Sequence record: PZ445430.1
Length of the DNA stretch: 64,000 nt
Source: a phage
Direction: 5' to 3' (one strand)
Under the pieces are notes generated by a model, which had not been told where the DNA came from, made no database searches, and worked only from the letters and a program-made list of their open reading frames with translations. The stretch's first letter is position 1, and each line of letters begins with the position of its first letter. Of the stretch, positions 16,422 to 55,116 are shown piece by piece. The position numbers and the translations under genes were made by a program.

Positions 16422-16871
16422 ATGAAGGCAGCTTTGCTTCTAATAGCTGCCCTAACCTATAGCTTCAATAGTCATGCTACCTACGACTCAAAGCAGATTG
16501 ATTGCATTGCAAAAAATATCTACTTCGAAGCACGAGGTGAGGGCACAAAGGGAATGATTGCAGTTGCACAGGTTACTAAAAACCGTGTAAACTCCGGTAA
16601 ATTCCCTGATTCTTACTGTAAAGTAGTATATCAGTCTAACCAATTCAGCTGGACAGCTAAAAAACCTAGGGTTGATAAAACAGATGAGACTTGGCAAGTT
16701 GCTAAGAACTTAGCTAGAGTGATATACTACGTTGATTTACCACAAGATCCAACACAGGGGGCGTTATACTTCCATAGTGGTAAAGATAAACCGTACTGGA
16801 CAAAGAAGTTTAAGAAAACAACGAAGATTCAAGGCCATACGTTCTACAAGCCTGTGGTTAAGAAAACTTAA
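16422..16871 (+). CDS. secreted cell-wall hydrolase (SleB/Hydrolase_2-like)
   Basis: Signal peptide MKAALLLIAALTYSFNSHA; motif NIYFEARGEG..AVAQVTKNR. Confidence 0.55.
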   Translation: MKAALLLIAALTYSFNSHATYDSKQIDCIAKNIYFEARGEGTKGMIAVAQVTKNRVNSGKFPDSYCKVVYQSNQFSWTAKKPRVDKTDETWQVAKNLARVIYYVDLPQDPTQGALYFHSGKDKPYWTKKFKKTTKIQGHTFYKPVVKKT

Positions 16872-16878
16872 AAATTCG

Positions 16879-16907
16879 ATTGCTTAAAGACTTAAATTTC
16901 TGTATAA
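16879..16907 (+). promoter_or_regulatory. early promoter (TTGCTT-17-TATAAT)
   Basis: -35 at 16879-16884, -10 at 16902-16907. Confidence 0.6.
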
Positions 16908-16939
16908 TACTTTCATAAATTAATGAGAGGAAGCGAAAT

Positions 16940-17110
16940 ATGAAATCAGTTGTAATTATTGGTGTTAATACCCGTGGTATCCGTACTACGAAAACAGTTA
17001 AAACTACTAACGTTGCTGAAATTACTACAAACCCTAAGAAGTTTGATTTCGCCAAAGTCTCGGCAGTTATGACAGAACAATCTTTTAACCAAGTACTGGG
17101 AATTAAATAA
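16940..17110 (+). CDS. small hypothetical protein (56 aa)
   Basis: Short ORF with GAGAGGAAG RBS, coupled to next gene. Confidence 0.35.
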   Translation: MKSVVIIGVNTRGIRTTKTVKTTNVAEITTNPKKFDFAKVSAVMTEQSFNQVLGIK

Positions 17111-17553
17111 TGGAAGAAAATATTCTAAATGTTTTGCGTAGGGCTTTGCAGGAATCTAAGATTGATGGCTCTGATAAAGAGGTAGCTAAAAGCTACCAGA
17201 CCATAATCGAAGATCTTCAGCGTGTTGATAAAGACTTCATTACTTCTGAACAGTTTGTGTCTTATCTCAAAGCTCAGCTGAAAAGCATTAATCAGACGAA
17301 AGCTAAACTTCATGGTCAAGACCTTGATAATTATAGCTTGCAGTCTGCTCAGTATGAATATATACTGAACAAATGGCTACAACAGTATCTGCCGCCTCAG
17401 CTTTCTGATTCTGAGATTCGCAAATACTTTGCAGAATTAGTTACGTTGAACCCTGGGATTACGAAGAGTATGCTGATGAAAGCGATTAAGGAAGAATTCC
17501 CTGGTCGTTATGACGGTGGCATCGCTGCTCAGGTTGCTGGCGAATTTAACTAA
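17110..17553 (+). CDS. hypothetical protein
   Basis: ORF. Confidence 0.5.
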   Translation: MEENILNVLRRALQESKIDGSDKEVAKSYQTIIEDLQRVDKDFITSEQFVSYLKAQLKSINQTKAKLHGQDLDNYSLQSAQYEYILNKWLQQYLPPQLSDSEIRKYFAELVTLNPGITKSMLMKAIKEEFPGRYDGGIAAQVAGEFN

Positions 17554-17561
17554 AAATTGAT

Positions 17562-17590
17562 TTGCTAAACGCTTCAAAATTCTGTATAAT
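17562..17590 (+). promoter_or_regulatory. early promoter (TTGCTA-17-TATAAT) reading into an ORF-free region
   Basis: -35 at 17562-17567, -10 at 17585-17590. Confidence 0.6.
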
Positions 17591-17845
17591 AGATTCATAA
17601 ATTAGAGAACAGCGAGCCGATTACGCTGAGTGAGTTTAGTGATTCCTACTAGGATAGCTACTCCACTGAATAGAGTCGGTGAGTTGGAGACTAGTAAGTA
17701 CTCTGAGAGAGGCTACGAGCTAACGCTTATTGCTATTGATAGGGAACTGAAAATCTGCGGAAAACTCGGGAGCTGTCCCGAAATCTCGTAAACTCTTCTC
17801 TAGTTTATGTTAGTGGGGTGTCGAACTGACTTATGTGATAACACT

Positions 17846-17917
17846 GCCGTCCTAGTATAAACGGTAATATCAAACCGTAACTGGTGGAAGATGCAGGTTC
17901 GAATCCTGCGGTCGGAA
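17846..17917 (+). ncRNA. tRNA-like element
   Basis: Canonical T-arm GCAGGTTCGAATCCTGC; acceptor and anticodon stems do not pair; no CCA. Confidence 0.3.
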
Positions 17918-18449
17918 AGAATCAGATAACTCGGGCTTATACCGGATAAGCATTCGCTGCTGTAGTACATACTATGACGGTTCAGGAGGTACGCCTCCTG
18001 ATCAGTATTAGGTTAGAATCGAAACAGCTAAACCACGAGGAAACCTGACGGCCTCAACCAAACTCGGAACTCGGGATCACTGCCTAGTGTGTACCCCGTT
18101 TAACCTGAGACTAGGCATCCAGCTTCGCATCGAAAATCGGAGGTGCGATTCTAACAGACCGCGTGAATATGAGAGTGGGAAACGCTGACATGAGAGATGT
18201 CACTAATGGTGCCCAATAGTACAGGTAATTCGCGATAATTCCTGTTGAGCGGCAGCAGTAGGCTGGGAGTCATGACCTAAGCCTAACCGAGTTCTTCACA
18301 TACGGAGAACATAACCACAAAGTCACCCTGACTTAAACTGGAAGATATTGTCTGACGGAAGGGCTGCAGAGCTTAATCTGAGGGGGCTGACCCTACCTAC
18401 CGTCGGGTATCTTTAAGAGCTTTTATAAGAGTTCTTAAAAATACCTAAA

Positions 18450-18524
18450 CGGGGTGTAGTCTAAGGGATAGGCAGGAGTCTTCTAAATTCCTTTATGCAG
18501 GTTCGAATCCTGTCACCTCGGCCA
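18450..18524 (+). tRNA. tRNA-Arg(TCT)
   Basis: Manual cloverleaf; anticodon loop CTTCTAA; CCA encoded. Confidence 0.7.
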
Positions 18525-18550
18525 ATTTTATTAACTGCTAGGAAAATAAA

Positions 18551-18751
18551 GTGAAAACACGATATATAGTAAAAGTAGTAGGTGAACATTCACAAGTAAA
18601 TACCACCGATGTTACAGCGCTAGCATTTGAAGTAGTCTCCGGTATAGTCATATTTCATAACGGAGATATCAAAGCTCCTGAATTTGCTGTGGATGCTAGC
18701 CTGTTTATTTCTGCAACTAAAGTAACTGTAGTAGCTAACTCTTCTAAATAA
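18551..18751 (+). CDS. hypothetical protein
   Basis: ORF with GTG start after AGGAAA RBS. Confidence 0.4.
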   Translation: MKTRYIVKVVGEHSQVNTTDVTALAFEVVSGIVIFHNGDIKAPEFAVDASLFISATKVTVVANSSK

Positions 18752-18762
18752 TAAGGAAATAT

Positions 18763-19707
18763 ATGTTTACTAAAAACACTAAAGAACTGACTTCCGATCA
18801 AAAAGTAATTCGTACTATTAAACGTTGGGGCGTTGGTGCTGTAGTTGGTCTTGGCGCTCTTATTCTGGCTCTCAATTCCTATACAGTTGTTCAGGACGGT
18901 ACGGTTAAAACTCAGACTTTCCTGGGTAAAGTTAGTCCTAATCCTGTATTGCCGGGGTTCCATATTGTCAACCCATTCGCCTCTTTTGATACTTTTAGTA
19001 CGAAAGATATTTCTATGAAACTGGATAAACTTCAGGTTCCTAGCCAGGATAAGTTTAAGTCCACTGTTGACATTACCGTTATGTTGCAGTTTGATGGTGC
19101 TAAAGCTCCTATGAACCGTGTTAACGCAGGTACTCAGGATCAAGCTCTGAACAAGTACGTTGAAGAGAAGATGCTATCTACTATTCGTGAGTTTGGTAAG
19201 TCTGTACCAAAAGCACAAGATCTGTTCGACGCTAAGATTCAGGCTCAACTGCAAACTGCTATTCAGCAAGAAGTAGAAGAGTACGCGCGTCCTTATGGTT
19301 ACACGGTTAAGCAAGTATTCCTTCAGGATATTACTCTGCCACCTGTAATCATGGAACAGGTACAAAACACAAAAGTTCGTGAAGAACAAGTTAACGCCGC
19401 TAAAGCTGAATTGGCTCGTGTTGAACAAGAAGCACAGCAGAAAGTTAAGCAAGCTGAAGCTGATCGTTCTGCTCGTGAAAACATGGCAGTAGCTAACGAA
19501 CGTGACGCAGATGCTAAACTGTACGCAGCTAAGAAAGAAGCTGAAGCTAACGCCGCGCTGCAACGTACCATTACTCCTGAAATGATTCGTTGGAAGCAGC
19601 TGGAAGTTGAAATGCTTCGTGCTGAAAAATACCAAGGTGGTGTACCGCAGACTATTGTTGGTACTGGCTACGATGGTCAAATGATCATGGATATGCGTAA
19701 CAAGTAA
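18763..19707 (+). CDS. SPFH/band-7 (HflK/C, prohibitin-like) membrane protein
   Basis: N-terminal TM helix, SPFH-like core, long Ala/Glu/Lys coiled coil. Confidence 0.7.
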   Translation: MFTKNTKELTSDQKVIRTIKRWGVGAVVGLGALILALNSYTVVQDGTVKTQTFLGKVSPNPVLPGFHIVNPFASFDTFSTKDISMKLDKLQVPSQDKFKSTVDITVMLQFDGAKAPMNRVNAGTQDQALNKYVEEKMLSTIREFGKSVPKAQDLFDAKIQAQLQTAIQQEVEEYARPYGYTVKQVFLQDITLPPVIMEQVQNTKVREEQVNAAKAELARVEQEAQQKVKQAEADRSARENMAVANERDADAKLYAAKKEAEANAALQRTITPEMIRWKQLEVEMLRAEKYQGGVPQTIVGTGYDGQMIMDMRNK

Positions 19708-19730
19708 TAGTTACACGTAATCTTCGAACC

Positions 19731-19768
19731 AAGCCCGCGTTTCCTCCGAGAGCGCGGGCTTTTCTGTA
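19731..19768 (+). terminator. rho-independent terminator
   Basis: Hairpin aagcccgcg..cgcgggctt plus T-run. Confidence 0.6.
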
Positions 19769-19919
19769 TTTAAGGCAAAAGAAAAGCCCATAAGTTATTC
19801 AACTAAGGTCTTTAGTATTTAATTCTTTAATTCTTTAGAATCATATACTATTATTGTAGCAACAACGTGCTACCACTAAATGCCTTGAGATTTTTCCACT
19901 AAAAAGTTTAAAAATTCGA

Positions 19920-19948
19920 TTGCTTGAACGCTAAATTCTCTGTATAAT
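19920..19948 (+). promoter_or_regulatory. early promoter (TTGCTT-17-TATAAT)
   Basis: -35 at 19920-19925, -10 at 19943-19948. Confidence 0.6.
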
Positions 19949-19978
19949 ATATTTATAAATTTGAGAGAGGAATCAAAT

Positions 19979-25505: not shown

Positions 25506-25587
25506 AACATCAGAGCAGCGTGATGTACTGCAAAGACCCAAAGTCCGGGGTGGACTTCTTGATTCAAAGGAGCAGGCATTAATTATC

Positions 25588-25709
25588 ATTCTAGCGTGGT
25601 GGAGAGGGGACACCAGCTTGCCGAGGGTAGAAGCTCGTTCGATTCGAGTGAAAGAATGGTTCTCGTAAATCCGCACAAGTGATAGCAGGTTCAAGTCCTG
25701 CCTAGATTG
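25588..25709 (+). ncRNA. degenerate tRNA-like element (about 120 nt)
   Basis: T-arm gcagg-TTCAAGT-cctgc and second T-loop-like ctcg-TTCGATT-cgag; pairable acceptor 122 nt apart; no CCA. Confidence 0.25.
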
Positions 25710-25718
25710 ACTTATTAT

Positions 25719-25792: not shown

Positions 25793-26040
25793 AATTTAGG
25801 TTTCTGCTTCCTAGAGAACTGACTCCTAGATAAACAAGGCGATGAGTTTCCGGCCGGTTCTAGTCGCTGAAAATCCTCCCGACCAGGTAGGTGTAAGTAA
25901 ACGAAAGTTTACTTATTAAGTAAGTCCGACACATCGGCGGGTGTGTTCTAGTACTTAAAGAAGGTCTCGCAAACTTTCTCGCTAGCATGAGTTCATAGCT
26001 CGGTGACTTACCTAATAAGTAAATTTATTAAAAAATGTAG

Positions 26041-27471: not shown

Positions 27472-27734
27472 ATTTATATAAATCGATGAGGAGAAATCCT
27501 CATCAAAGTTCACTAAGGTATTAGCTCGACCTAGGACTGGCTGCCAACAAGCACAGTTGCAATTAGACCCCTAATGGCGGGGGGATACTTTGCAATAAGT
27601 TCTAGATTAGTCCACTAGATTCAGCGGCAACTGAATAGTGTATCGGGTTTGTGAAGAGCGGTTATCCTCTACTGGCTAATGTCTGAGGGTAATACGCACA
27701 CCGAGCTAATAGCCTTAGTAAACTTAAAGATTTT

Positions 27735-28389: not shown

Positions 28390-28482
28390 GGAAGAGCAAA
28401 TCGACTTGGTGACGAAAACCACTTGGAAAGTGGCTGACTTGTGAAAGCAGGCTTGAGAGTTCGAATCTCTCTTCTTCCGCCA
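28390..28482 (+). tRNA. tRNA-Ser(GGA)
   Basis: Acceptor ggaagag/ttcttcc; anticodon loop TTGGAAA; long variable arm; T-loop TTCGAAT; CCA encoded. Confidence 0.55.
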
Positions 28483-28496
28483 AACAAAATTTATAG

Positions 28497-28591
28497 GGTA
28501 GGTCAATCCAACGGCTGGCGCTGGACTCCGACTTGAAATCGGTTGATCGTAGTGATACGGTGTAAGGGTTCGATCCCCTTACCTACCCCCA
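28497..28591 (+). tRNA. tRNA-Ser(TGA)
   Basis: Acceptor ggtaggt/acctacc; anticodon loop CTTGAAA; long variable arm; CCA encoded. Confidence 0.6.
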
Positions 28592-28596
28592 AATCT

Positions 28597-28728
28597 TGAA
28601 GTATGCCGGAATCGGTAGACGGGGCTTCCTAAAGGGCGTAAGAGGAACATCCACTCCTCATAAGATACCCGAAAACGAGGCTGAGATAAATGGTCTATCT
28701 CGTGAAGGTTCAAGTCCTTCTGCTTCTT
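28597..28728 (+). ncRNA. tRNA-like element with Leu-type D-arm (about 130 nt)
   Basis: D-arm ccgg-AATCGGTAGAC-gggg, T-arm gaagg-TTCAAGT-ccttc, pairable acceptor; extra 45 nt internally; no CCA. Confidence 0.25.
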
Positions 28729-28906
28729 GATATTCAATGGCTCAAAGAGTAACGGTGCACCTTTCTAGAGAATTTTCTGGGCGAGAATCCAGAAGTAATC
28801 AACTAGTTGTTAGTGTGATGAGTTTCGGAGAGCCGCCACAATTGAAGTCTTTAGAATGGGTATCGCCCTTTAGCCCCTCCGAAAGGGATAACTAGAGATT
28901 TCAATT

Positions 28907-54246: not shown

Positions 54247-54266
54247 TAGGATAACCTGTATATAAG

Positions 54267-54324
54267 TCTGTGGATAAGTCGCCAAATCGTCGCCTATTGC
54301 GTCAAGTTATTTTGTGCTGTGGAT
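54267..54324. promoter_or_regulatory. two DnaA boxes (TGTGGATAA) in reverse orientation
   Basis: Exact boxes at 54267-54275 and 54316-54324. Confidence 0.55.
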
Positions 54325-54339
54325 AACTTTGTGAATAAC

Positions 54340-54440
54340 CTAAATGATAGTGGTTCTCACTTAGCTGATAGTTTCTTATAGTTATTATTTCTCTTTAATT
54401 TATATGTATATTATATAATATGAAATAGTTAGTTGGCTAA
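54340..54440. other. AT-rich tract, possible DNA-unwinding element
   Basis: About 85 percent A+T next to DnaA boxes. Confidence 0.35.
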
Positions 54441-54699
54441 TAGGTTTTTAGATTATTAATAGTCTGCTAACTGTTTCGGCTGCTACAATCCACCAGCGTG
54501 ACTATCCTTCTAGTGATTGTTAGTCTGCTACTATTTTCTAGCGTTACCAATTCTTAAATGATAATCATTTGCATTGTAGGAAACTTACGAAAACAGTAAG
54601 AAAATAACATGTCAATAGCTAACGCTGCAATGCACAAAAATAAATTTTGTCAATACCCGAAAGTTATTAAATGTGATGCGGATAAGTTATCAACAGGGT

Positions 54700-54731
54700 C
54701 TAAAACGCTCTGTAACGCTCTCTAAGCGTTT
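54700..54731 (+). repeat. direct repeat copy 2
   Basis: Matches 50571-50603; preceded by ttatcaacagg at 54687-54697. Confidence 0.7.
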
Positions 54732-55116
54732 TTAGTCAAAAGCTAGGCAAGTGCATTGCCACTATGCCGATCTCCTCACCACGAGGATTTTAGATTTTGT
54801 CAAGTACCCTAGAGCAGATATAAATGAAAAAATTACTTGCTAAAATGGTTGTTTTGGTGTTATTCGCACGCCTGTTTCATTAAATTTAGTGCGCCGCTTG
54901 CCGTGGTGCGGGTAGTGGTTTTCTTTACGTTTCTTTACAAAAATAAGGTTGCGCCATTTTCGGGAATCCCCTATTATTTATCTCGTAGGACGGCAAGACG
55001 GAAACGAAAGGCCAGAATACAACGGCGGGGAAGTTTACCGCCACGCTCTTTAAAAATTAGGGAACATCTTAAAGCCTATCGGCGGTAAACTTATACATTA
55101 TAAGGAACTGACGATA

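What the first reader, a model, noticed from the sequence alone, without database searches (positions are those of the whole stretch)
17591..18449. About 860 nt ORF-free transcript region behind a strong promoter, ending in tRNA-Arg
A consensus early promoter at 17562-17590 fires into about 860 nt with no ORF of 60 aa or more, above-average GC, and a tRNA-like T-arm at 17893-17909 whose other stems do not pair. A real tRNA-Arg(TCT) follows at 18450. This may be a long structured non-coding RNA or a tRNA precursor with decoy elements.
Basis: seen in the sequence. Interest (0 to 1): 0.6.

Follow-up and report, generated by a model that had tools for sequence, protein, structure and literature searches.

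The report
Phage T5 "RNAX": large structured non-coding RNA
The gene-free stretch is this phage's copy of "RNAX", a large folded non-coding RNA with a built-in tRNA look-alike that T5 genome records have listed since about 2004 as "stable RNA with unknown functions", and whose job nobody knows.

Summary
The window is Escherichia phage SuperGirl, a T5-like phage. A TTGCTA-17-TATAAT promoter (17562-17590) leads into the longest stretch of the window without an ORF of 60 aa or more. Its GC is 46% against 40% for the window, and it ends 5 nt before a real tRNA-Arg(UCU).

The region is orthologous to "rnaX / RNAX, stable RNA with unknown functions" in the GenBank records of T5, BF23, phage 5 and DT571/2. 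SuperGirl's own record instead places two small, apparently spurious CDS there.

Comparison of 21 non-redundant homologues (645-1479 nt) shows a modular folded RNA with strong compensatory base-pair changes. A 5' helix closes a swappable 5' domain. A 12-bp arm carries a tRNA-like element at its tip. Many covarying hairpins carry invariant loops, and a near-invariant 3' hairpin lies just before the tRNA.

The tRNA-like element has acceptor, D and T arms but no usable anticodon arm. No small ORF is conserved, and no Rfam family other than tRNA matches.

The T5 st(0) deletion mutant lacks it, so it is dispensable in the laboratory. It resembles the GOLLD and ROOL RNAs in genomic context but is not a member of either. 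Its existence is known; its fold, spread and function are uncharacterised.

The parts
17562..17590 (+). Sigma-70 promoter (TTGCTA, 17 nt, TATAAT), homologous to T5 'promoter P 16-17'. Inferred transcription start at A17597.
   Evidence: Promoter scan. The block is conserved in all relatives. It is annotated as a promoter in T5 and BF23. The start site is inferred from spacing, not mapped.
17597..18449 (+). RNAX orthologue: about 853 nt of structured non-coding RNA, from the inferred start to the RNase P site of tRNA-Arg.
   Evidence: Homology to annotated rnaX. Covariation. MFE z-score -3.5. No Rfam family except tRNA.
17597..17609 (+). P1 helix, 5' strand (AUAAAUUAGAGAA). It pairs with 17796-17808.
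   Evidence: 13 bp. Formed in 18 of 21 homologues. There are matched 2-nt insertions on both strands in TrudiGerster, L024 and the Klebsiella phages, and compensatory versions in L028 and DU_PP_V.
17610..17795 (+). Variable 5' domain enclosed by P1. Contains hairpin 17610-14/17624-28, a candidate pseudoknot (17616-20 GCCGA with 17675-79 UCGGU), and hairpin CUCGGGA-GCUG-UCCCGAA.
   Evidence: Absent in T5 and DT571/2, where P1 is a plain hairpin; present in BF23, Epseptimavirus, Klebsiella and Pectobacterium phages. DU_PP_V has CAGCA/UGCUG, GCAGA/UCUGU and CUCAGU/ACUGAG in place of the SuperGirl pairs (read from the alignment).
17796..17808 (+). P1 helix, 3' strand (UUCUCUAGUUUAU).
17812..17825 (+). 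Near-invariant motif AGUGGGGUGUCGAA. GUGG (17813-17816) is a candidate long-range partner of CCAC (18031-18034), closing the middle domain.
   Evidence: GGGGUG is invariant in 21 of 21 sequences. The 4 pairs are kept in all 18 distinct sequences, with two pairs changed on both sides in DU_PP_V. Support comes from a single lineage, so this remains a candidate.
17826..17839 (+). Long arm helix, 5' strand. It pairs with 17921-17934.
   Evidence: 12 bp, 7 of them with changes on both sides, 99.6% of cells paired.
17840..17845 (+). Invariant internal-loop strand AACACU, opposite AAGA at 17917-17920.
   Evidence: AACACUGCC is invariant in 21 of 21 sequences. It is kept even where the tRNA-like element is replaced (L037).
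17846..17917 (+). tRNA-like element (TLS) at the tip of the arm. It has acceptor, D and T arms. The anticodon arm is reduced to 3 bp plus a 6-nt loop (GUAACU). No CCA is encoded.
   Evidence: Rfam tRNA model 29.3 bits (gathering score 29); ARAGORN makes no call. Compensatory changes occur in the acceptor and T stems. Orthologues are called Ser(ACU), Leu(UAG), SeC(UCA) or nothing.
17921..17934 (+). Long arm helix, 3' strand.
17935..17951 (+). Hairpin GCUUA-UACCGGA-UAAGC.
   Evidence: 5 bp, 100% paired. The closing pair is UA, CG or AU in 8, 7 and 6 sequences.
17952..18259 (+). Middle domain with nested helices: 17959-62/18025-28, 17969-73/18004-08, 18034-40/18159-65, 18045-48/18064-67, 18072-75/18095-98, 18125-31/18142-48, 18187-89/18199-201 and 18221-24/18242-45.
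   Evidence: RNAalifold plus pair counts on 10 sequences: 94.3% paired against 81.5% in shuffles, 21 of 44 pairs with changes on both sides, slid controls 26-41%. Modules are swapped between phage lineages.
18260..18284 (+). Hairpin with a covarying stem (AGGCU/AGCCU) and an invariant loop, GGAGUCAUGACC (18266-18277), that contains the 8-nt palindrome GUCAUGAC.
   Evidence: The stem differs between lineages (AGACU/AGUCU, GUGAC/GUCAC, CCUAGAC/GUCUAGG, UACUAAAC/GUUUAGUA) while the loop is constant. The self-duplex is -12.4 kcal/mol.
18291..18310 (+). Hairpin 18291-95/18306-10.
   Evidence: Changes on both sides in 3 of 5 pairs.
18321..18343 (+). Conserved AGUCA-CCC-UGACU hairpin followed by UAAACUGGAA.
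   Evidence: Near-invariant. Its two halves are complementary to the palindromic loop.
18407..18444 (+). 3' terminal hairpin, 16 bp with one A.C mismatch. It is the most conserved block of the RNA.
   Evidence: 13 of 16 pairs never vary across 20 distinct sequences. It is more than 92% identical even in Pectobacterium phage DU_PP_V.
18445..18449 (+). 5-nt spacer CUAAA.
   Evidence: Sequence.
18450..18524 (+). tRNA-Arg(UCU) with encoded CCA. Its RNase P site would create the 3' end of RNAX.
   Evidence: ARAGORN and Rfam at 49.3 bits. The role of RNase P is inferred.
18551..19761 (+). Rest of the transcription unit: a 66-aa ORF, an SPFH/Band-7 protein (18763-19707) and a terminator-like hairpin (19731-19761).
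   Evidence: ORF list. Pfam Band_7, E = 2.9e-19. Terminator scan. The equivalent site is annotated as bidirectional terminator ter1 in BF23.

Best explanation
**What it is.** The region is SuperGirl's copy of RNAX, a large non-coding RNA family of enterobacterial T5-like phages that is folded, modular and conserved.

**How it is made.**
- It is transcribed by host RNA polymerase from a strong sigma-70 promoter.
- It is the first element of a transcript that continues into tRNA-Arg(UCU), a small ORF and an SPFH protein gene.
- RNase P cleavage at the 5' end of tRNA-Arg most likely releases it.
- Its two ends are buried in helices, which would explain why it is a 'stable RNA'. These are the 13-bp P1 helix, beginning at the inferred start site, and the 16-bp terminal hairpin 5 nt before the tRNA.

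**How it is built.**
- Between the ends lies a core of short covarying helices. They display invariant loops and junction strands: GGGGUG, AACACUG/AAGA, GGAGUCAUGACC, AGUCACCYUGACU and UAAACUGGAA.
- The core is decorated with lineage-specific, swappable domains.
- One decoration is a 12-bp arm that presents a tRNA-shaped module with acceptor, T and D arms but no decoding anticodon loop.

**What it probably does.** It most likely acts in trans as an RNA in its own right, like the phage tRNA-island RNAs GOLLD and ROOL. The tRNA-like module would serve as a handle for something that recognises tRNA shape, such as RNase P, the CCA-adding enzyme, a tRNA-binding phage or host protein, or a tRNA-cutting defence nuclease. 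It is an accessory function, not needed for growth on laboratory E. coli.

**Shown:** orthology, the absence of coding signal, the fold and its covariation, the tRNA-like fold, the distribution, and the absence from the syntenic 30.5-44 kb stretch of the st(0) mutant record that was examined.

**Inferred:** the start site, the RNase P release, the cause of stability, the action in trans and the ligand.
For: **Orthology**
- The window is 100% identical to phage SuperGirl.
- The equivalent interval is annotated misc_RNA rnaX, 'stable RNA with unknown functions', in T5 (719 nt), BF23 (784 nt) and DT571/2 (636 nt). In each it lies between promoter P16-17 and tRNA-Arg. Phage 5 carries the same annotation.
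- T5 rnaX and the window share three blocks at 80-88% identity.
- 527 phage records match.

**Structure**
- Central domain: 96.5% of cells paired against 85.2% in shuffles (0 of 500 shuffles as high). 18 of 34 pairs change on both sides. Slid controls give 28-43%.
- Middle domain: 94.3% against 81.5%, 21 of 44 pairs with double changes.
- 3' domain: 96.5% against 90.8%.
- P1 forms in 18 of 21 homologues, with matched insertions on both strands.
- Hairpin stems covary around invariant loops.
- MFE z-score is -3.5.

**Not coding**
- The 53-aa + strand ORF is unique to this phage type.
- For the 56-aa - strand ORF, variable sites fall 39/38/37 over the three codon positions. Relatives have stops and frame shifts there.
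- Neither ORF has a Pfam hit.

**tRNA-like module**
- It scores 29.3 to 39.6 bits on the Rfam tRNA model in five phages, including the window, and 26.6 bits in Klebsiella phage K7_rec1.
- Its 'anticodon' differs between orthologues: Ser-ACU, Leu-UAG, SeC-UCA or none.
- In SH9-type phages it is replaced by an unrelated hairpin while the arm and the internal loop stay.

**Dispensability**
- The T5 st(0) record has no rnaX or tRNA-Arg in the syntenic stretch.

**Context parallel**
- GOLLD and ROOL are large phage or prophage RNAs near tRNA islands. GOLLD has a conserved 3' part and a variable 5' part, and sometimes has tRNAs in its linker (PMC5737381; PMC12286853).
Against: - No transcript data were available here. 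'Stable RNA' rests only on the wording of GenBank annotations, and I found no paper describing RNAX in the searchable library.
- The annotated start of rnaX in T5 and BF23 is 8 nt downstream of my inferred start, which would shorten P1.
- In Klebsiella phages and in STWB21 and S126, ORFs lie between RNAX and tRNA-Arg. There RNase P cannot define the 3' end.
- All homologues come from one phage group of Enterobacterales. Part of the covariation signal therefore reflects a few deep lineages (Tequintavirus, Epseptimavirus, Klebsiella phages and one Pectobacterium phage).
- The shuffle control does not correct for relatedness.
- The most conserved elements are invariant and so cannot be tested by covariation.
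- Conservation of the 3' hairpin could partly be at the DNA level.
- Nothing found here points to a specific ligand or activity.
Confidence: 0.8

Rival explanations
1. It is only a long 5' leader of the tRNA-Arg precursor. On this view it is built from a decayed tRNA pseudogene and debris of mobile elements, is degraded after RNase P processing, and has no function of its own.
For: - It is physically upstream of, and co-transcribed with, tRNA-Arg.
- The region is a hot spot for insertions. ORFs of 147-170 aa are inserted in or next to it in phages 1586, STWB21, S126 and L065, and blocks are swapped between lineages.
- The T5 st(0) mutant lacks it.
Against: - Junk leaders do not keep dozens of base pairs through compensatory changes, or invariant loops, across phages whose RNAX is otherwise only about 68-76% identical or unalignable.
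- The unit is retained where ORFs separate it from tRNA-Arg.
- GenBank curators of T5, BF23 and DT571/2 label it a stable RNA.
Confidence: 0.07
2. It is a cis-acting leader. Its fold controls processing, stability or expression of the downstream tRNA-Arg, the small ORF and the SPFH gene, for example by providing an entry or blocking site for RNase E, RNase III or RNase P.
For: - One promoter and one terminator-like site bracket RNAX, tRNA-Arg, orf66 and the SPFH gene.
- The order RNAX then tRNA-Arg(UCU) is conserved in every lineage examined, even with ORFs in between.
- The 3' hairpin next to the tRNA is the best-conserved block.
Against: - A length of 650-1480 nt with many independent domains is far more than known leaders need.
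- In Klebsiella phages the downstream genes differ.
- 90-kb relatives with the SPFH gene and tRNA-Arg(UCU) have no RNAX motifs.
Confidence: 0.1
3. The region encodes one or two small proteins, as in the SuperGirl GenBank record (bas29_0079 at 17630-17791 on the + strand and bas29_0080 at 17800-17970 on the - strand).
For: Both ORFs exist. The - strand ORF has look-alikes in 19 of 21 homologues.
Against: - The + strand ORF is a singleton among the 21 non-redundant homologues, and the domain that holds it is absent from T5 and DT571/2.
- The - strand ORF overlaps the tRNA-like element. Its variable sites fall evenly over codon positions (39/38/37), its start codon is not conserved, and it is broken by stops or frame shifts in the Klebsiella phages, DU_PP_V and L019.
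- Neither has a Pfam hit.
- The substitutions are the ones that preserve RNA helices.
Confidence: 0.02
4. The conservation is at the DNA level: a replication, recombination, nicking or homing-endonuclease target region rather than an RNA.
For: - The 3' hairpin and the GTCATGAC palindrome are invariant DNA inverted repeats.
- Endonuclease-like ORFs insert next to the hairpin in some phages.
Against: - G-U pairs and strand-specific compensatory changes (for example UG/UA/CG series) fit RNA pairing on the + strand.
- The unit starts exactly at a promoter and ends at a tRNA.
- DNA targets do not explain about 850 nt of covarying helices.
Confidence: 0.02

Closest known systems
RNAX (gene rnaX) of phages T5, BF23, phage 5, DT571/2 (GenBank AY543070, AJ604530, AJ604531, NC_047749): 'stable RNA with unknown functions'
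   Same: - Same locus: after the YqeY-like gene and promoter P16-17, directly before tRNA-Arg(UCU) and the SPFH gene.
- Shared blocks at 80-88% identity.
- Same P1 helix, arm with tRNA-like element, invariant motifs and 3' hairpin.
   Different: - SuperGirl's copy is 853 nt against 719 (T5), 784 (BF23) and 636 (DT571/2).
- It has the roughly 190-nt 5' domain that T5 lacks.
- It has a different middle-domain module set.
- Its acceptor stem has two mismatches where T5 has none.
- It is not annotated in the SuperGirl record.
GOLLD RNA (Rfam family; large phage/prophage RNA near tRNA islands)
   Same: - Several hundred nt to more than 1 kb, ornate, with many helices.
- Encoded by phages next to tRNA clusters and probably co-transcribed with them.
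- Better conserved 3' part and variable 5' part.
- tRNAs or tRNA-like units can sit inside.
- Function unknown (PMC5737381, PMC12286853).
   Different: - No match to the Rfam GOLLD model, even at E <= 10 on 1 kb and E <= 5 on five homologues.
- Different hosts: virulent T5-like phages of Enterobacterales.
- Oligomer formation was not tested.
ROOL RNA (Rfam family)
   Same: A large structured RNA of phages and prophages, often near tRNAs, non-essential and of unknown function.
   Different: No Rfam match. Its motifs and secondary structure are unrelated.
Genuine tRNAs, and tRNA-like modules embedded in larger RNAs (tmRNA tRNA-like domain, viral 3' TLS, mascRNA; named from my own knowledge)
   Same: A cloverleaf-like top half. 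It has a 7-bp acceptor stem (fully paired in T5), a D stem, a T arm with a UUCGAAU loop and U at position -1.
   Different: - The anticodon arm is 3-4 bp with a 6-nt loop, or an elongated arm in Klebsiella phages.
- No CCA is encoded.
- Both ends continue into a conserved 12-bp helix.
- ARAGORN finds no tRNA or tmRNA here.
Other small 'stable RNAs' annotated in the T5 tRNA region (RNA1, RNA2, RNA2H, RNAIV, RNAI)
   Same: The same annotators, the same tRNA island and unknown function. Homologues are present in this window.
   Different: They are 100-170 nt, not about 850 nt, and show no sequence relation to RNAX apart from an 18-nt T-arm match.

Membership tests
T5 RNAX (rnaX) | Lies between the P16-17-type promoter and tRNA-Arg(UCU), downstream of the YqeY-like gene and upstream of the SPFH gene | tested here: met
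   Synteny in the T5, BF23 and DT571/2 records against the window. Pfam gives Band_7 (E = 2.9e-19) and a weak YqeY hit at 23.3 bits, below the cutoff of 27.
T5 RNAX (rnaX) | Sequence homology to an annotated rnaX | tested here: met
   Three blocks at 80-88% identity to T5 rnaX. 82-84% over 160-390 nt to DT571/2 and BF23.
T5 RNAX (rnaX) | Shared secondary structure | tested here: met
   Covarying helices common to 21 homologues.
T5 RNAX (rnaX) | Accumulates as a stable RNA in infected cells | not testable with these tools
   Only the wording of the GenBank notes is available. No paper or expression data were found.
tRNA (RF00005) | Cloverleaf scoring above the curated threshold | tested here: inconclusive
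   29.3 bits against a gathering score of 29, with the anticodon arm left unaligned. ARAGORN makes no call in the window.
tRNA (RF00005) | 5-bp anticodon stem, 7-nt loop, and an anticodon conserved among orthologues | tested here: not met
   3 bp plus the 6-nt loop GUAACU. Orthologues are read as Ser-ACU, Leu-UAG, SeC-UCA or nothing.
tRNA (RF00005) | Free 5' and 3' ends, with the 3' end carrying CCA | tested here: not met
   The sequence after the acceptor stem is AAAGA, with no encoded CCA. Both flanks pair in a conserved 12-bp helix. Post-transcriptional processing could not be tested.
GOLLD RNA | Match to the Rfam covariance model | tested here: not met
   No hit at E <= 10 on window 17540-18560 or at E <= 5 on five homologous loci.
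GOLLD RNA | Large phage RNA adjacent to a tRNA island | tested here: met
   It sits at the head of the 27-tRNA region of the window. Context described in PMC12286853.
GOLLD / ROOL RNA | Homo-oligomeric cage assembly | not testable with these tools
   The only hint is an invariant palindromic loop.
ROOL RNA | Match to the Rfam covariance model | tested here: not met
tmRNA | tRNA-like domain formed by the two ends, plus a tag reading frame | tested here: not met
   ARAGORN reports no tmRNA. There is no Rfam tmRNA hit in the region. The element has C3-G70, not G3.U70.
Protein-coding gene | ORF conserved in frame with a codon-position bias of substitutions | tested here: not met

The most novel reading that the evidence does not exclude
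RNAX may be a third, independent class of ornate phage RNA associated with tRNA islands, alongside GOLLD and ROOL. Two mechanisms remain open.

(a) Self-assembly. The RNA forms dimers or higher oligomers through the invariant hairpin loop GGAGUCAUGACC. Its 8-nt palindrome GUCAUGAC could form a kissing duplex between two molecules.

(b) Decoy. The arm presents a non-decoding tRNA mimic as bait or shield against host factors that recognise tRNA shape. One example is defence nucleases that nick tRNA acceptor stems, such as retron Eco2, which protects against Demerecviridae (PMC12916289).

Either would be a new RNA-based function in the classical model phage T5.
Probability: 0.2. Interest if true: 0.8.

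Novelty: new member of a known kind. Interest (0 to 1): 0.55.

Why it matters
Large, intricately folded non-coding RNAs are rare in bacteria and phages, and those known (rRNA, RNase P, group I and II introns, OLE, GOLLD, ROOL, raiA) have repeatedly revealed new biochemistry.

RNAX is 0.65-1.5 kb and is found in more than 500 sequenced T5-like phages. These include T5 itself and many therapy or biocontrol candidates against Salmonella, E. coli and Klebsiella.

It has been a one-line database note for about twenty years. It is absent from Rfam, and I found no paper describing it in the searchable library. Annotation pipelines keep covering it with spurious 'hypothetical proteins' and mislabelled tRNAs (tRNA-Sec, tRNA-OTHER, tRNA-Ser).

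T5 and the BASEL phages are easy to manipulate, and deletion mutants already exist. The question of what phage tRNA-island RNAs are for could therefore be tested directly here. At the least, a covariance model for RNAX would clean up annotation of this phage family.

Tried and rejected
- **Rfam.** Searched at permissive thresholds on the window and on five homologous loci. Only tRNA hits and chance-level matches appeared.
- **Literature.** Seven full-text searches and five papers read. None describes RNAX.
- **Wider homologues.**
  - Relatives of the SPFH neighbour in viral contigs gave only T5-like phages, plus two 90-kb phages without RNAX motifs.
  - The 3' hairpin pattern gave 29 viral contigs, almost all carrying RNAX of the known size classes.
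  - The GGGGTG...AACACTGCC pattern gave 11 metagenome contigs. Those with both RNAX ends recoverable were 94-99% identical to known types. It gave no hit in 185,579 species genomes.
  - The pattern GGAGTCATGACC N{35,65} TGACTTNAA added three contigs that are chance hits without any other RNAX motif, two of them apparently in coding sequence.
- **Long-range helix CUGCU(17957-61)/AGCAG(18251-55).** RNAalifold proposed it. I rejected it in favour of the local GCUG/CAGC helix (17959-62/18025-28). The local helix has two compensatory changes and 100% pairing, and the long-range partner is missing in T5-type RNAs.
- **Small ORFs.** Rejected as genes.
- **YqeY-like upstream gene.** I considered it as a partner that binds the tRNA-like element. 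The Pfam hit is below threshold (23.3 against 27 bits), and the gene was not seen immediately upstream of RNAX in the Klebsiella or Pectobacterium loci examined. It remains only a lead.
- **Not attempted.** I did not build a covariance model or run a phylogeny-aware covariation test such as R-scape.
Full report
**Identity of the window and check of the observation**

The 1-kb stretch around the finding is 100% identical to Escherichia phage SuperGirl. This is Bas29 (MZ501105), genus Epseptimavirus, a T5-like phage of the Demerecviridae.

- The promoter is there: TTGCTA, 17 nt, TATAAT at 17562-17590, with 10 of 12 consensus matches.
- The interval 17554-18550 is the longest stretch of the 64-kb window with no ORF of 60 aa or more on either strand. 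It is 997 nt; the next longest are 644 and 582 nt.
- GC is 46.2% against a window mean of 39.9%. Only 0.4% of equal-sized windows reach that.
- ARAGORN and Rfam both confirm tRNA-Arg(UCU) at 18450-18524.
- The T arm at 17893-17909 is real. Rfam's tRNA model aligns 17846-17917 at 29.3 bits against a gathering score of 29, with acceptor, D and T stems. Only the anticodon arm fails.

**It is a known, annotated but uncharacterised RNA**

The same interval carries a misc_RNA feature reading 'rnaX, RNAX, stable RNA with unknown functions' in four records:

- T5 (AY543070), 719 nt, between 'promoter P 16-17' and tRNA-Arg.
- BF23 (AJ604530), 784 nt.
- Salmonella phage 5 (AJ604531).
- DT571/2 (NC_047749), 636 nt.

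T5 rnaX and the window share three blocks at 80-88% identity.

SuperGirl's own record has no such feature. It places two 'hypothetical protein' CDS inside the region instead: 17630-17791 on the + strand and 17800-17970 on the - strand. Other records label the embedded tRNA-like element tRNA-Sec, tRNA-Ser or tRNA-OTHER.

I found no paper on RNAX in the searchable library.

The T5 st(0) deletion mutant (AY692264) joins the remnant of the YqeY-like gene directly to the tRNA-Asp region. It has no rnaX in the syntenic 30.5-44 kb. The RNA is therefore dispensable for growth in the laboratory.

**Distribution**

- blastn finds the region in 527 phage records. These are Salmonella, Escherichia, Klebsiella, Shigella, Citrobacter, Yersinia and Pectobacterium phages, all T5-like where I looked.
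- A stringent motif scan found 11 metagenome contigs. All those that could be compared were of known types. It found none in one genome each of 185,579 bacterial and archaeal species.
- Two 90-kb phages that share the SPFH neighbour at 75% identity, and that also have tRNA-Arg(UCU), lack all RNAX motifs.

The family is thus confined, as far as these searches see, to virulent T5-like phages of Enterobacterales.

**It is not coding**

- Among 21 non-redundant homologues (97% identity or less, 645-1479 nt), the 53-aa + strand ORF is a singleton.
- The 56-aa - strand ORF overlaps the tRNA-like element. Its variable sites are spread 39/38/37 over the three codon positions. Its start is not conserved. 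It is interrupted by stops or frame shifts in the Klebsiella phages, the Pectobacterium phage and L019.
- Neither ORF has a Pfam match.

**It is a folded RNA**

The minimum free energy is 3.5 SD below that of dinucleotide shuffles. The comparative evidence is much stronger.

*(a) P1 helix.* It spans 17597-17609 with 17796-17808, 13 bp, and starts at the inferred transcription start.
- It forms in 18 of 21 homologues.
- It shows a matched AG/CU insertion in TrudiGerster, L024 and the Klebsiella phages, and compensatory versions in L028 and DU_PP_V.
- It encloses a 5' domain of about 190 nt. That domain is absent in T5 and DT571/2, and is replaced by a 160-aa ORF in phage 1586.

*(b) The arm.* A 12-bp arm, 17826-17839 with 17921-17934, has seven pairs changed on both sides. 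At its tip it carries the tRNA-like element, beyond an invariant internal loop (AACACU / AAGA).

*(c) The tRNA-like element.*
- The acceptor stem shows compensatory changes: GCCGACC/GGUCGGU in T5, GCCGAUC/GAUCGGU in DT571/2, GCCGUCC/GGACGGU in BF23 and GCCCUCU/AGUGGGA in DU_PP_V.
- The T stem alternates between GCAGG, GUAGG and GUGGG, each with the matching partner strand.
- For this central domain, 96.5% of cells are paired against 85.2% in column shuffles (0 of 500 shuffles as high). 18 of 34 pairs change on both sides. Sliding the partner by 1-3 columns drops pairing to 28-43%.

*(d) Middle domain, 17952-18259.* 94.3% of cells are paired against 81.5% in shuffles, and 21 of 44 pairs have double changes.

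*(e) 3' domain.* 96.5% of cells are paired against 90.8% in shuffles. It ends in a 16-bp hairpin, 18407-18444, that hardly varies.

*(f) Invariant loops.* Several hairpins have freely covarying stems around invariant loops. The clearest is 18260-18284. Its stem is AGGCU/AGCCU here, AGACU/AGUCU in STWB21, GUGAC/GUCAC in the Klebsiella phages, CCUAGAC/GUCUAGG in DU_PP_V and UACUAAAC/GUUUAGUA in S126. The loop GGAGUCAUGACC stays constant.

*(g) Candidates resting on one divergent lineage.*
- The long-range helix GUGG(17813-16)/CCAC(18031-34) would close the middle domain. It is ACGG/CCGU in DU_PP_V.
- A pseudoknot in the 5' domain would pair GCCGA with UCGGU. It is GCAGA/UCUGU in DU_PP_V.

*Caveats.* The sequences come from a few lineages. 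The shuffle control ignores relatedness. I could not run a phylogeny-aware test.

**The tRNA-like element**

- It keeps the tRNA top half. The anticodon arm is a 3-4-bp stem with a 6-nt loop (GUAACU or UUCACC), or a long extended arm in Klebsiella phages.
- ARAGORN reads the orthologous element as Ser(ACU) in T5, BF23 and TrudiGerster. It reads Leu(UAG) in DU_PP_V and SeC(UCA) in S126, and makes no call in SuperGirl or the Klebsiella phages. It therefore does not decode.
- No CCA is encoded.
- In SH9-type phages the whole element is replaced by an unrelated hairpin. The arm, the internal loop and the first pairs of the stem remain.
- It is therefore a peripheral, exchangeable module on a conserved core. 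This resembles the tRNAs sometimes found in the GOLLD linker.

**How it most likely works**

*Shown:* the promoter, the fold, the module architecture, the adjacency to tRNA-Arg, and the absence from the T5 st(0) mutant.

*Inferred:*
- Transcription starts at A17597, seven nt after the -10 hexamer. From memory, this matches the well-studied T5 early promoters, which share this downstream sequence.
- RNase P cutting at 18449/18450 releases the RNA.
- P1 and the terminal hairpin protect the ends, giving the 'stable RNA'.
- The RNA then acts in trans.

The tRNA-shaped tip could recruit, or distract, anything that recognises the tRNA elbow and acceptor stem. RNase P might even excise it, leaving the two halves held together by the arm.

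Host defences that cut tRNAs are active against T5-like phages, and T5 tRNAs counter some of them (PMC11464382). Retron Eco2 nicks tRNA acceptor stems and protects against Demerecviridae (PMC12916289). That makes a decoy role conceivable but untested.

The invariant loop GGAGUCAUGACC contains the palindrome GUCAUGAC, whose self-duplex is -12.4 kcal/mol. It could mediate kissing-loop dimerisation. It could equally pair within the molecule with the split complement AGUCA-CCC-UGACU at 18321-18333. The data cannot distinguish these.

**Comparison with what is known**

- It is an orthologue of T5 RNAX, so its existence is not new.
- In what it resembles, the closest are GOLLD and ROOL. These are large ornate RNAs of phages and prophages beside tRNA islands. 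They are non-essential and of unknown function. GOLLD has a conserved 3' part and a variable 5' part.
- It is not a member of either. Neither Rfam model matches the window or five homologues at permissive thresholds.
- It is not a tRNA, not a tmRNA and not a protein-coding gene.

**Verdict**

This is a real feature, correctly spotted and essentially correctly interpreted. It is a new, unannotated member of an already listed but neglected RNA family. Interest is moderate. The family's fold, modularity and restriction to T5-like phages are, as far as I could find, undescribed. The system is experimentally easy, but no function can be assigned from sequence.

Noticed in passing
window 25587-25711, 25925-25976, 27519-27654, 28595-28738: Homologues of four other T5 'stable RNAs' annotated without function: rna2 (90% identity), rnaIV (partial), rna2H and rna1. 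They lie between the tRNA genes of this window (T5 features).
   Followed up: partly
window 28390-28478 and 28497-28587 (+): Two sub-threshold Rfam tRNA-Sec-like matches (26.5 and 38.3 bits, gathering score 47) that ARAGORN does not call. They may be degenerate long-arm tRNAs or further tRNA-like RNAs, and sit just upstream of the rna1 homologue.
   Followed up: no
window 54255-54836: A 582-nt stretch with no ORF of 60 aa or more on either strand, the third longest in the window. It was not examined.
   Followed up: no
window 17630-17791 (+) and 17800-17970 (-): The SuperGirl GenBank record annotates two hypothetical proteins here (bas29_0079 and bas29_0080). Both lie inside RNAX and show no coding signature, so they are probably mis-annotations.
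   Followed up: yes
L009 415-897; L007 1729-2238; L010 1627-2136; L065 (147-aa ORF): In related phages, ORFs of 147-170 aa are inserted into or next to RNAX. In phage 1586 one replaces the 5' domain. In STWB21 and S126 one lies between the 3' hairpin and tRNA-Arg. Some records call such neighbours homing endonucleases. RNAX borders appear to be insertion hot spots.
   Followed up: partly
L037 7437-7647; L048: In SH9-type Salmonella phages the tRNA-like element is replaced by an unrelated hairpin of about 40 nt. The flanking arm, the internal loop and the base of the stem are kept.
   Followed up: partly
window 17110-17553: The gene just upstream of the RNAX promoter gives a weak YqeY-domain hit (23.3 bits, cutoff 27). 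Other records name it 'tRNA amidotransferase' or 'recombination-related exonuclease'. From my own knowledge, YqeY/GatB-type domains bind tRNA, so it is a possible partner. It was not seen immediately upstream of RNAX in the Klebsiella or Pectobacterium loci examined.
   Followed up: partly
window 17813-17816 with 18031-18034; 18175-18178 with 18315-18318: The motif pair AGUGGG ... AACCAC occurs twice in the RNA. In both cases the divergent DU_PP_V RNA changes both partners compatibly (ACGG/CCGU and AUGG/CCGU). This hints at two similar long-range helices and perhaps an internal duplication (the second pair was read from the sequences only).
   Followed up: partly
window 17551-17604; also window about 16870-16923 and 19910-19967: The promoter together with its first transcribed bases (...TATAATAGATTCATAAATTAGAG) recurs at 79-85% identity upstream of other early genes, here and in DT571/2. 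The 5' strand of P1 is therefore also part of a shared promoter-proximal sequence.
   Followed up: no
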